A stretch of DNA of 21,580 bases, from positions 1 through 21,580 of the IMG/VR virus record IMGVR_UViG_2724679140_000004; one strand, 5' to 3'. Position numbers and translations under genes: made by a program. The notes beneath the pieces were generated by a model. That model was not told the origin of the DNA and did no database searches. It was given only the letters and a program-made list of their open reading frames with translations. Origin of the DNA: a virus (taxonomy: Duplodnaviria; Heunggongvirae; Uroviricota; Caudoviricetes). Of this stretch, positions 4,519 through 4,977 are shown piece after piece; the stretch's first letter is position 1; every line of letters starts with the position of its first letter.

Positions 4519-4546
4519 TAAAAAAACCGCTTCTGCGGTTTTTTAA
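4519..4546. terminator. Intrinsic terminator-like hairpin between the lipoprotein moron and H; may act in both directions
   Basis: AACCGC-TTCT-GCGGTT stem-loop (4525-4540), flanked by an A-run on one side and a T-run on the other. Confidence 0.5.
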
Positions 4547-4554
4547 GATGATAA

Positions 4555-4896
4555 TTATTGGCAAAACAACTTATATTTTTCCATACTGCTTGGATCATGA
4601 TCATTAACAATTGTTACAGTCCCATGACTCTTAACTTTTCCATCCACAACTTCCAAATAAACAAAATATGGTTTTTTCCCTGTATATCCACCAAACGTGT
4701 TTTTTGAATTAACATCCCCACAAACATAACCATATAAATCACCTGACTTATGAAAAAAAGAATTAAATTTTGCACTATCAGGATCAATAAGCTTATCTTT
4801 AACTAAGTTTTCCCCTAAAGAAATAACATAATTATCTGATGGTTTACATGCACTAATAAAAAACAAACAAGCTAATGTCACCACTGATTTTCTCAT
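4555..4896 (-). CDS. Moron lipoprotein of unknown function (113 aa) inserted in the tail gene cluster
   Basis: AGGAGG 7 nt upstream of the ATG at 4896. N-terminus MRKSVVTLACLFFISAC is a signal peptide plus lipobox (ISAC). The gene is visibly AT-rich relative to its neighbours and has its own terminator. Confidence 0.6.
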   Translation of the reverse strand: MRKSVVTLACLFFISACKPSDNYVISLGENLVKDKLIDPDSAKFNSFFHKSGDLYGYVCGDVNSKNTFGGYTGKKPYFVYLEVVDGKVKSHGTVTIVNDHDPSSMEKYKLFCQ

Positions 4897-4948
4897 GATT
4901 AATCCTCCTGACTTTGAGTTAAGCATTCAATTTCAAAACGATTAAAAA

Positions 4949-4977
4949 ATTATCTTATAGTGAAGACATTAGAGCAA
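4949..4977 (-). promoter_or_regulatory. Candidate sigma70 promoter for the lipoprotein moron
   Basis: Minus strand reads TTGCTC, 17 nt spacer, GATAAT; overlaps the 3' end of the T segment. Confidence 0.3.

What the first reader, a model, noticed from the sequence alone, without database searches (positions are those of the whole stretch)
4519..4977. AT-rich lipoprotein moron with its own promoter and terminator between the G-T chaperone and the tape measure gene
A 113-aa predicted lipoprotein with a strong RBS (AGGAGG), a sigma70-like promoter and a downstream terminator is inserted in an otherwise tightly coupled tail operon, and its composition differs sharply from its neighbours. Lipoproteins at tail-gene junctions in other phages act in superinfection exclusion by blocking receptors (Cor, Llp). 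The function here is unknown.
Basis: partly seen in the sequence, partly recalled or inferred. Interest (0 to 1): 0.5.

Follow-up and report, generated by a model that had tools for sequence, protein, structure and literature searches.

The report
Lipoprotein moron in phage tail operon
An E. coli lambdoid prophage carries an extra, AT-rich gene between its tail chaperone and tape measure genes, in the slot where the first "moron" (HK97 gene 15) was described; it encodes an exported lipoprotein of a large uncharacterised family that recurs in phage tail operons, and its function is still untested.

Summary
There is a 113-aa ORF (4555-4896) with an AGGAGG RBS and a PROSITE-type lipobox (Cys17). 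Its GC is 30%, against 49-54% in the neighbouring genes. A significant hairpin plus T-run (4520-4544) sits just before the tape measure start codon.

It is an accessory gene. 901 of 5426 complete E. coli genomes carry the flanking tail genes, but only 17 carry the insert. The slot is the one occupied by HK97 gene 15.

Two details need correcting:
- The promoter (TTGCTC-17-GATAAT) scores no better than shuffled sequence.
- The terminator is not specific to the insert, because empty junctions in relatives have an equivalent hairpin.

The exchanged segment is larger than the gene (~4506-5030) and includes the last ~23 codons of T.

The protein belongs to a very large family with no Pfam, NCBIfam or PDB match (PHROG 2320). 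The gene is under purifying selection (dN/dS ~0.1) and the predicted fold is confident and cystatin/NTF2-like. Relatives sit at three tail-operon junctions: T|TMP, TMP|M and K|I.

It is not homologous to Cor, Llp or gp15, and it does not co-vary with the receptor-binding end of J. A Cor/Llp-type receptor block is therefore not supported. A periplasmic exclusion role that does not depend on the receptor is my best guess, and it is untested.

The parts
4555..4896 (-). Coding sequence of the 113-aa prolipoprotein (stop codon included). The mature part is residues 17-113.
   Evidence: Translation. Thousands of homologues. dN/dS is 0.09-0.14 between alleles. AlphaFold2 model has pLDDT 89.2 and pTM 0.77.
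4846..4896 (-). Signal peptide and lipobox: MRK, a hydrophobic core, then ISA|C. The Cys17 codon is 4848-4846. The residue at +2 is Lys, which by the Lol sorting rule predicts outer-membrane targeting.
   Evidence: PS51257 pattern match. A lipobox is kept in all 46 non-redundant tail-operon loci. Ala16, Cys17, Lys18, Pro19 and Ser20 are invariant in the close subfamily. Across 243 family proteins, 226 have a hydrophobic N-terminus, 149 have a lipobox, and only 5 have Asp at +2.
4904..4909 (-). Shine-Dalgarno sequence AGGAGG, 7 nt upstream of the ATG.
   Evidence: Read directly from the sequence. Conserved in the 93%-identical allele in L008.
4949..4977 (-). Candidate sigma-70 promoter TTGCTC-17-GATAAT, overlapping the end of gene T. 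Weak and unproven.
   Evidence: Best hit of my position-weight scan, but not better than shuffles. The tool scan did not report it. Both hexamers are conserved in L008.
4520..4544 (-). Intrinsic-terminator-like hairpin: A-run, CCGC, loop AGAA, GCGG, then 7 T. It lies immediately before the TMP ribosome-binding site and start codon.
   Evidence: z = -3.95, and 0 of 200 shuffles fold as well. A hairpin with different stems or loops occurs at the same place in other carriers, in HK97 and in empty sites. 4 of 8 pairs show compensatory changes.
4955..5030 (-). Divergent, AT-rich last ~23 codons of gene T (…HDSEENKCDDPFIGLEVALMSSL*). This is the left part of the exchanged segment.
   Evidence: Identity with empty-site relatives breaks after ...LLQWE. 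GC is 0.34, against 0.54 for the rest of T.
4506..5030 (-). The whole exchanged cassette: variant T 3' end, lipoprotein gene, hairpin and a variant TMP ribosome-binding site. About 525 bp here replace about 115 bp in relatives.
   Evidence: Alignments of filled and empty sites. The query spans about 598 bp in empty genomes and 1001 bp here.
5257..5643 (-). Flank: tail assembly chaperone G. The A AAA AAG slippery site at 5266-5260 feeds into T by a -1 frameshift.
   Evidence: Pfam Phage_TAC_1, E = 5.9e-57. The slippery site is read from the sequence.
1266..4505 (-). Flank: tape measure protein (1079 aa). Its conserved 5' end (MATLRELIIK) is the right-hand homology arm of the cassette.
   Evidence: Pfam TMP_3, Phage_HK97_TLTM and Tape_meas_lam_C. 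The alignment becomes identical from the TMP start codon onward.
18256..19077 (-). Q antiterminator of the same prophage. It explains how late transcription can pass the hairpin in front of TMP.
   Evidence: Pfam Antiterm, E = 6.4e-52. That Q-modified polymerase reads through terminators is established lambdoid biology, so this step is an inference.

Best explanation
The region is a horizontally exchanged accessory cassette (a moron) in the T|tape-measure slot of an HK97-type tail operon in an E. coli lambdoid prophage.

Shown here:
- The cassette runs from about 4506 to 5030. It was swapped in by recombination between the 3' end of T and the conserved 5' end of the tape measure gene.
- It encodes a prolipoprotein whose signal peptide and lipobox predict lipidation at Cys17.

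Inferred about the protein:
- Lys at +2 predicts Lol sorting to the inner leaflet of the outer membrane.
- A roughly 96-residue alpha+beta (cystatin/NTF2-like) domain would face the periplasm. It is probably stabilised by a Cys59-Cys112 disulfide.

Inferred about expression:
- The gene is transcribed with the tail genes by Q-modified polymerase, which ignores the hairpin.
- It may also be transcribed in the lysogen from a weak promoter at the end of T. In that case the hairpin would stop transcription before the tape measure gene.

Most likely role (inference, untested): an envelope-level superinfection-exclusion or progeny-protection factor that acts in the periplasm after adsorption, against incoming siphovirus tails or DNA entry. 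HK97 gp15 does this from the inner membrane. I do not think it plugs one particular outer-membrane receptor in the way Cor and Llp do.

Confidence differs by part: about 0.9 for 'accessory cassette encoding an exported lipoprotein', and about 0.35 for the exclusion mechanism.
For: Accessory status:
- 17 of 901 E. coli genomes that carry the flanks have the insert. It is always beside T and occurs as two alleles.
- Filled and empty sites align cleanly.

Foreign origin:
- GC is 0.30 against about 0.52 for the surroundings.
- The same contrast holds in all 46 non-redundant related loci: 0.30-0.43 against 0.49-0.56.

A real, selected gene:
- dN/dS is 0.09-0.14.
- More than 3100 homologues, and 8473 50%-identity cluster representatives.
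- The structure prediction is confident.

Exported:
- Lipobox present.
- 226 of 243 family proteins have a hydrophobic N-terminus.
- C59 is conserved in at least 90% of aligned sequences and C112 is invariant.
- Some members carry a C-terminal SPOR (peptidoglycan-binding) domain.

Slot:
- Same position and layout as the HK97 gene 15 moron, which has a putative terminator before TMP. That gene is expressed from the prophage and excludes phages at DNA entry (PMC3594210).
- ES18 gp20, a homologue at the same slot, is annotated 'possible moron' with flanking terminators.

Linkage to tail operons:
- At least 60 of 80 viral loci lie at T|TMP, K|I or TMP|M, always co-oriented with the tail genes.
- TMP is the only recurrent neighbour even for distant homologues.

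Not receptor-specific:
- K|I paralogues are 95-100% identical while the J C-terminal 250 aa are 27-98% identical.
- E. coli carriers whose mature lipoprotein differs by 3 residues have J C-termini only 42-44% identical.

Precedents for tail-cluster genes that exclude phages: mEpimmI Lpp (PMC11893012) and P-FimU (PMC12952977).

Read-through: a Q antiterminator is present in the window.
Against: - No experiment or transcriptome was available, so expression in the lysogen is unproven.
- The promoter candidate is at chance level.
- K|I paralogues have no room for a promoter (36 nt upstream) and no terminator. At least some family members are therefore ordinary late-operon genes, not autonomous units.
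- The hairpin also exists at empty sites, so it cannot be used as evidence for an autonomous cassette.
- No known defence model matches.
- Strong purifying selection and a nearly invariant motif (DPxSAxF ... CGxVNAKNxxGGYxG) from Proteobacteria to mycobacterial prophages point to a conserved target. That target need not have anything to do with phages.
- Many distant homologues lie outside recognisable prophages.
Confidence: 0.4

Rival explanations
1. Cor/Llp-type receptor masking. The outer-membrane lipoprotein would bind the periplasmic face of the phage's own outer-membrane receptor and inactivate it. That would block adsorption of related phages and protect progeny from dead-end adsorption.
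For: It is a predicted outer-membrane lipoprotein encoded among tail genes. Cor is likewise a tail-region moron lipoprotein in HK022. mEpimmI tail-cluster lipoproteins exclude phages according to receptor type (PMC11893012). T5 Llp blocks FhuA (PMC9586334).
Against: - It is not homologous to Cor beyond the signal peptide.
- It matches no PDB sequence; by my recollection the PDB includes T5 Llp.
- The lipoprotein stays nearly constant while the receptor-binding end of J is swapped.
- Carriers have three different tail-tip module types.
- The family's core motif is conserved across phyla, unlike fast-evolving receptor-specific blockers.
Confidence: 0.15
2. A lysogenic-conversion or host-fitness factor unrelated to phage exclusion. 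Examples would be a periplasmic binder or inhibitor (cystatin-like) that protects the envelope against peptidoglycan hydrolases, toxins or host defences, or a Bor-like virulence or stress factor.
- SPOR-domain fusions link the domain to peptidoglycan.
- A nearly invariant loop suggests a conserved ligand.
- Many homologues sit in chromosomal, non-phage contexts or beside polymorphic-toxin cassettes.
Against: - The fold similarity is generic and weak.
- There is no Pfam match to Bor or any other family.
- The 113-aa subfamily is almost exclusively found in tail operons, which a general fitness factor does not explain.
Confidence: 0.2
3. A late lytic-cycle helper rather than a prophage-expressed gene. 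It would be made with the tail proteins and modify the envelope of the dying cell, for example to prevent progeny from injecting into debris or vesicles, or to tune lysis.
For: It is always co-oriented with the tail genes. K|I paralogues have neither promoter space nor a terminator. The window's promoter is at chance level. Q read-through would express it late.
Against: 884 of 901 related E. coli prophages do without it. T|TMP carriers keep a terminator after it, and some lineages have better promoter matches (GTGACA-17-TAGGAT, shuffle fraction <= 0.04; TTGAAG-17-TAAAAT, 0.01). The HK97 gene in the same slot is expressed from the prophage (PMC3594210).
Confidence: 0.15
4. A chance ORF or decaying passenger with no function.
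For: AT-rich DNA, no annotation, and rare among relatives.
Against: dN/dS is about 0.1. There are thousands of homologues with invariant residues. The fold prediction is confident and the RBS is strong.
Confidence: 0.02

Closest known systems
HK97 gene 15 moron (gp15, a YebO-like inner-membrane superinfection-exclusion protein)
   Same: It occupies the same slot, between the G/T tail chaperone genes and the tape measure gene of an HK97-type tail operon. The layout is the same: T stop, about 57 nt, a strong RBS, a small envelope-protein gene, a hairpin terminator, then the TMP start. Composition is foreign in both. It is a precedent for prophage expression and for exclusion at DNA entry (PMC3594210).
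   Different: There is no sequence relationship (hhalign probability 0.2%). gp15 is a 62-aa single-pass inner-membrane protein. This protein is a 113-aa lipoprotein precursor with a folded periplasmic domain, predicted to go to the outer membrane.
Salmonella phage ES18 gp20
   Same: It is a true homologue: 41% identity over the core in tblastn, E = 1e-7. It sits at the same junction, directly before the tape measure gene, with a putative terminator after it. The record annotates it 'possible moron; function unknown'.
   Different: gp20 is longer (151 aa), and two other morons (gp18, gp19) sit in front of it. It is uncharacterised as well, so it adds no functional information.
Cor (HK022, phi80, N15) and T5 Llp receptor-blocking lipoproteins
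   Same: They are small phage-encoded lipoproteins from tail-gene regions that act in the envelope (PMC3594210; PMC9586334).
   Different: Only the signal peptide aligns with Cor. There is no PDB sequence match, including to Llp by my recollection of PDB content. Cor lies beyond J, and Llp lies beside its receptor-binding protein, whereas this family does not co-vary with the receptor-binding end of J.
mEpimmI Lpp021 and Lpp010 exclusion lipoproteins
   Same: They are lipoproteins encoded inside the structural gene cluster of temperate coliphages, and experiments show that they exclude phages (PMC11893012).
   Different: Their types match the receptor used (OmpA or LamB). They did not appear among tblastn hits of this protein in the phage collection. 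I did not check whether the mEp genomes are in that collection, so the lack of homology is not formally tested.
PHROG 2320
   Same: The protein matches this family end to end (E = 2e-33).
   Different: The family has no assigned function, so membership gives no mechanism.

Membership tests
Moron (as defined by Juhala, Hendrix and colleagues; summarised in PMC3594210) | An extra gene between two genes that are adjacent in related phages. | tested here: met
   In 884 of 901 E. coli genomes with the flanks, T and TMP are separated only by a roughly 46-nt spacer. 17 genomes carry the insert.
Moron (as defined by Juhala, Hendrix and colleagues; summarised in PMC3594210) | Base composition differs from the surrounding genes. 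| tested here: met
   GC 0.301 and GC3 0.184, against 0.49-0.54. The same contrast holds in 46 related loci.
Moron (as defined by Juhala, Hendrix and colleagues; summarised in PMC3594210) | Its own promoter. | tested here: inconclusive
   The tool scan found nothing on the coding strand. The best candidate, TTGCTC-17-GATAAT, is not above shuffles. Some sister lineages have better matches.
Moron (as defined by Juhala, Hendrix and colleagues; summarised in PMC3594210) | Its own terminator. | tested here: inconclusive
   A significant hairpin plus T-run follows the gene and shows covariation across loci. Empty junctions have an equivalent hairpin, so it is a feature of the slot rather than of the cargo.
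Moron (as defined by Juhala, Hendrix and colleagues; summarised in PMC3594210) | Expressed from the repressed prophage. | not testable with these tools
   This needs RNA-seq or 5'-RACE on a lysogen such as MS8345, H1827/12 or CE0007a (one search lists the carriers).
Bacterial lipoprotein (PROSITE PS51257; Lgt/Lsp/Lnt pathway) | A positively charged N-region, a hydrophobic core, and a lipobox [LVI][ASTVI][GAS]C within about the first 40 residues. | tested here: met
   MRK, then SVVTLACLFFI, then ISA-C17. The pattern matches and is conserved in all 46 related loci.
Bacterial lipoprotein (PROSITE PS51257; Lgt/Lsp/Lnt pathway) | Actual lipidation and Lsp cleavage. | not testable with these tools
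   This needs globomycin sensitivity or palmitate labelling, with a C17A control.
Cor superinfection-exclusion family | Sequence homology of the mature protein to Cor. | tested here: not met
   hhalign of the family profile against HK022 Cor aligns residues 1-20 only, which is the signal peptide.
T5 Llp family | Sequence or fold similarity to Llp. | tested here: not met
HK97 gp15 / YebO family | Sequence homology to gp15. | tested here: not met
   hhalign probability 0.2%. Only the genomic slot is shared.
Lambda Bor, Ltp and other named lipoprotein families in Pfam or NCBIfam | A match to the family model. | tested here: not met
   No Pfam or NCBIfam family at E <= 0.1. No PADLOC defence model at E <= 1.
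PHROG 2320 | A match to the family profile. | tested here: met
   E = 2e-33, covering residues 1-113.
Structural or morphogenetic tail gene | Conserved in all phages that have this tail module, and assembled in the cytoplasm. | tested here: not met
   It is absent from 98% of related E. coli prophages and from cultured phages Evi, phi467 and others. It also carries an export signal.

The most novel reading that the evidence does not exclude
This uncharacterised lipoprotein domain (PHROG 2320; motif DPxSAxF ... CGxVNAKNxxGGYxG, with a probable disulfide) may define a new, very widespread class of phage-borne periplasmic exclusion factors. Such factors would act independently of the receptor, on a conserved step of siphovirus entry. 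Candidate steps are tape-measure-mediated channel formation and tail-associated peptidoglycan or NlpC/P60 activity. This would explain why the gene is repeatedly captured next to tape measure and tail-tip genes, from Enterobacterales to Pseudomonas and Campylobacter, with relatives in mycobacterial and Gordonia phages.
Probability: 0.2. Interest if true: 0.7.

Novelty: new member of a known kind. Interest (0 to 1): 0.42.

Why it matters
The cassette itself is a textbook moron in the textbook slot, so it is not surprising. The cargo is more useful. It belongs to a very large protein family (thousands of clusters) with no annotation. The family is exported, is under strong purifying selection, and is inserted again and again at three junctions of siphovirus tail operons without following receptor specificity. 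If it proves to be an exclusion factor, it would be a common and easily testable new route of prophage-mediated phage resistance, relevant to phage therapy and to prophage competition in E. coli. The locus also shows how cargo is swapped at this slot: by recombination between the conserved 3' end of T and the conserved 5' end of the tape measure gene. A terminator persists at the slot even when it is empty.

Tried and rejected
- Longer 123-aa reading from the ATG at 4926. Rejected: it has no RBS, and the homologues start at MRK/MKK.
- Pfam, NCBIfam, PADLOC and PDB-sequence searches. No hits.
- Foldseek against the PDB. Nothing significant.
- BFVD. Only uncharacterised phage lipoproteins.
- AFDB50 library. 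Unavailable.
- Domain fusions as a functional clue. Only SPOR, in a few members.
- Conserved non-phage neighbours of distant homologues. None found. Neighbours are heterogeneous, and TMP is the only recurrent one.
- Literature searches for ES18 gp20, the RefSeq accession, PHROG 2320 and tail-operon lipoprotein morons. No study of this family turned up.
- Tai and Tab tail-assembly blockers. Considered and rejected: they are cytoplasmic, unrelated, and located elsewhere in the genome.
- Opposite strand. No ORF of at least 50 aa within the gene and no Rfam hit in the region. The promoter-like matches on the + strand are what AT-rich DNA would give by chance.
- H40, a possible alternative cargo at the slot. 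It turned out to be an IS66 insertion that truncates TMP.
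Full report
**What is in the sequence**

The feature lies on the minus strand. ORF 4555-4896 encodes 113 aa: MRKSVVTLACLFFISACKPSDNYV...KLFCQ. AGGAGG at 4909-4904 lies 7 nt before the ATG at 4896. An alternative ATG at 4926 has no ribosome-binding site, and the homologues start at MRK/MKK, so the 113-aa reading is correct.

The N-terminus matches the PROSITE lipoprotein pattern, with Cys17 as the lipidated residue and Lys at +2.

The gene has GC 0.301 and GC3 0.184. G, the 5' part of T, TMP, and the major tail, capsid, portal and terminase genes have GC 0.49-0.54. 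This is the lowest-GC 342-nt stretch of the 21.6-kb window, about 4 SD below the mean.

Downstream, AAAAAACCGC-AGAA-GCGGTTTTTTT (4544-4520) folds at -13.4 kcal/mol with z = -3.95, and 0 of 200 shuffles fold as well. The TMP start codon follows at 4505.

- Phage_TAC_1 chaperone G at 5257-5643. Its A AAA AAG slippery site at 5266-5260 feeds into T.
- Phage_tail_T at 4955-5245.
- A 1079-aa HK97-type tape measure at 1266-4505.

**Corrections to the observation**

The promoter is weak. The tool's consensus scan found no sigma-70-like site upstream on the coding strand. It is no better than shuffles of the same AT-rich sequence (fraction 0.23-0.5).

The terminator is not the insert's own. Relatives that lack the gene have an equivalent hairpin (AACCGC-TTCG-GCGGTT plus a T-run) between T and TMP. 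HK97 has one after gene 15. Across ten loci the stem is kept through compensatory changes in 4 of 8 pairs. The hairpin is therefore a property of the slot.

**It is an insertion or replacement**

A 1-kb query across the junction finds the flanks in 901 of 5426 complete E. coli genomes. Only 17 of them contain the middle part. In the others listed the match spans about 598 bp instead of 1001 bp. The same holds for 11 cultured or induced coliphages, including Evi and phi467.

The insert DNA alone occurs in exactly those 17 genomes. It is always next to T, in two alleles (>=99% and 92.8% identity), and is annotated 'hypothetical protein'.

Alignment of filled and empty sites shows where homology breaks:
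- On the left, inside T, after ...LLQWE at about 5030.
- On the right, it resumes exactly at the TMP start codon.

The exchanged segment (~4506-5030) therefore includes four elements: an AT-rich variant of the last ~23 codons of T (GC 0.34), the lipoprotein gene, the hairpin with a different loop, and a different TMP ribosome-binding site.

In a related viral contig (L032), the T 3' end motif GDPFAGLEAALLAAS is duplicated on both sides of a further 1.6-kb insert that precedes the lipoprotein gene. The TMP 5' end (MATLRELIIK) is conserved among HK97 and the L009 and L032 carriers as well as the window. Together these point to cassette exchange by homologous recombination between the T 3' end and the TMP 5' end.

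**The slot is the classical one**

In HK97, gene 15 sits between the G/T frameshift product and the tape measure gene, with a strong RBS, about 57 nt of spacer and a putative terminator. This is the element for which 'moron' was coined. Its product is expressed from the prophage and blocks DNA entry of HK97-like phages (PMC3594210).

ES18 gp20, a homologue of the present protein, occupies the same junction. Its record annotates it 'possible moron' with terminators on both sides.

HK022 has an annotated moron at the K|I junction. K|I is a second site used by this lipoprotein family.

**The protein family**

Pfam, NCBIfam, PADLOC and all PDB sequences give no match. PHROG 2320, of unknown function, matches end to end.

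A profile search finds more than 3100 proteins in the 90% clusters and 8473 representatives at 50% identity. Sources name them only 'hypothetical protein' or 'lipoprotein'.

Conserved positions:
- Close subfamily: A16, C17, K18, P19 and S20 are invariant.
- Wider alignment: P39, S41, G60, N63, K65, G69, G73 and C112 are invariant. D38, A42, F44, C59, V62, A64, N66 and Y71 are at least 90% conserved.
- These give the motif DPxSAxF ... CGxVNAKNxxGGYxG.
- Conservation of both C59 (at least 90%) and C112 (invariant), together with the export signal, suggests a periplasmic disulfide. This is an inference.

Of 243 family proteins, 226 have a hydrophobic N-terminus, 149 have a lipobox, and only 5 have Asp at +2. 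Some members are fused to a SPOR peptidoglycan-binding domain.

Between alleles dN/dS is 0.09-0.14, and 0.05-0.10 in the mature part.

AlphaFold2 on a 64-sequence alignment gives pLDDT 89.2 and pTM 0.77. The model has one helix, a four-stranded sheet and a C-terminal helix. Fold searches gave:
- Foldseek against the PDB: nothing significant.
- BFVD: other uncharacterised phage lipoproteins, such as those of Gordonia phage Sidious and Rhodobacter phage RcSpartan.

The fold supports a compact periplasmic domain but does not assign a function.

**Where relatives sit**

Look-ups of individual homologues:

| Junction | Loci or phages |
|---|---|
| T\|TMP | Escherichia and Citrobacter prophages and metagenome contigs (identities 86%, 59%, 58% and 48%) |
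| TMP\|M | Pantoea |
| K\|I | metagenome contigs, phage Fraca, Pseudomonas phage AUS531phi |
| Between ogr and int | P2-like phage SEN5 |
| Beside a polymorphic-toxin cassette | M. abscessus prophages |
| Plasmid-borne | about 150 non-mobilizable 100-120-kb plasmids |

In a census of 80 IMG/VR loci, at least 60 lie at T|TMP, K|I or TMP|M, always co-oriented with the tail genes. For 80 distant homologues, one per species, TMP is the only recurrent neighbour; examples include Janthinobacterium, Campylobacter concisus, Xenorhabdus and Edwardsiella. The other neighbours are heterogeneous.

In all 46 non-redundant tail-operon loci the gene is AT-rich relative to its phage. T|TMP loci nearly always have a downstream hairpin plus T-run. 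K|I loci have only 36 nt upstream and no terminator, so those copies look like plain late-operon genes.

**A test of the Cor/Llp idea**

A receptor-plugging lipoprotein should travel with the receptor-binding domain of its phage. It does not.
- Among 13 K|I loci, the lipoproteins are 95-100% identical apart from one divergent locus (L011, about 60%). The last 250 residues of J are 27-98% identical, mostly 30-60%. The first 800 residues of J are 84-100% identical.
- Among four E. coli T|TMP carriers, two alleles whose mature proteins differ by 3 residues go with J C-termini only 42-44% identical.
- T|TMP carriers also have three different tail-tip module types: lambda-like M/L/K/I, DUF1833-type and DUF6950-type.
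- hhalign of the family profile against HK022 Cor aligns only the signal peptide. It finds nothing against HK022 gp20 or HK97 gp15.

**How it most likely works**

Shown: this is a swapped-in accessory cassette that encodes an exported, selected lipoprotein. It sits upstream of a terminator-like hairpin, in a prophage that has a Q antiterminator (18256-19077).

Inferred:
- Late transcription from the Q-dependent promoter reads through the hairpin, so tail gene expression is not interrupted.
- Any transcription that starts at the weak promoter in the lysogen would stop at the hairpin.
- The mature protein is anchored in the inner leaflet of the outer membrane and faces the periplasm.

My best guess at the role is receptor-independent exclusion of incoming siphoviruses at a periplasmic step, or protection of progeny. 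It rests on four points:
- the persistent linkage to tape-measure and tail-tip genes;
- the HK97 gp15 precedent in the same slot;
- experimental precedents for tail-cluster envelope proteins that exclude phages (PMC11893012, PMC12952977);
- the lack of coupling to the J receptor-binding end.

I put this at about 0.35. The alternatives remain open: a general envelope-protection or inhibitor function, a purely late lytic-cycle role, or Cor-like masking.

**Verdict**

This is a real feature and it is correctly located. It is a moron in the archetypal slot with a new, uncharacterised lipoprotein cargo, so I class it as a new member of a known kind. The interest lies less in this locus than in the size and behaviour of the protein family, which can be tested directly by expression and exclusion assays.

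Noticed in passing
window 21249-21573 (-): A hok/sok type I toxin-antitoxin locus. The 70-aa ORF matches Pfam HOK_GEF (E = 1.8e-23), and the overlapping sok antisense RNA matches Rfam RF01794 (114.6 bits). It lies at the edge of a low-GC patch.
   Followed up: partly
window 17437-17650 (-): An Rfam STnc100 sRNA (109 bits) lies just downstream of the Q antiterminator gene (18256-19077), where the late-promoter leader would be expected.
   Followed up: no
window ~16889-17490: A second strongly AT-rich patch (GC < 0.38). Its only sizeable ORF (17065-17394, + strand, 109 aa) has no Pfam match. It could be another accessory insert or a regulatory region.
   Followed up: no
window 15463-15960 (-): A TerB-like protein (Pfam TerB, 27 bits, above the cut-off) sits just upstream of the lysis cassette. 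The cassette holds two holin-family genes (14562-14891 and 14827-15375) and an M15 endolysin (14182-14565).
   Followed up: no
window 13985-14239 (-): A small ORF directly after the endolysin contains a lipobox-like LLAGC after a hydrophobic stretch. It is a candidate spanin or second lipoprotein. It has no Pfam hit.
   Followed up: no
L002 1707-1752 and L003 (empty T|TMP junctions): Relatives without any cargo gene still carry a terminator-like hairpin plus T-run between T and the tape measure gene. It could be a scar of cargo loss, a landing pad, or a regulator of tape measure dosage.
   Followed up: partly
L032 4067-5946: The 3' end of T (GDPFAGLEAALLAAS) is duplicated on both sides of a 1.6-kb insert whose largest ORF is 279 aa and was not scanned against any family library. 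The insert sits between T and the lipoprotein gene. This suggests cassettes stack and swap by recombination at this motif.
   Followed up: partly
L046-L063 (K|I junction loci): The K|I paralogue of the lipoprotein is 95-100% identical across phages whose J C-terminal 250 residues are mostly only 30-60% identical. It has no terminator and only 36 nt of upstream spacer.
   Followed up: yes
L015 (E. coli plasmid NZ_CP024271.1) and ~150 similar plasmids: Homologues at 35% identity occur on non-mobilizable 100-120-kb plasmids of Escherichia, Klebsiella and others, next to replication-type genes (helicase, ligase). These may be phage-plasmids.
   Followed up: no
L016 (Mycobacterium phage prophiGD08-3) 2851-3279: A homologous 'membrane protein' sits directly after a polymorphic toxin and immunity cassette near the prophage end in many M. 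abscessus prophages.
   Followed up: no
L187-L190 (E. coli carriers): The identical lipoprotein (WP_071605788.1) is found in prophages with different lysis modules (lysozyme or M15 endolysin), different Q types and different integration contexts. The cassette therefore travels with the tail module in highly mosaic phages.
   Followed up: partly
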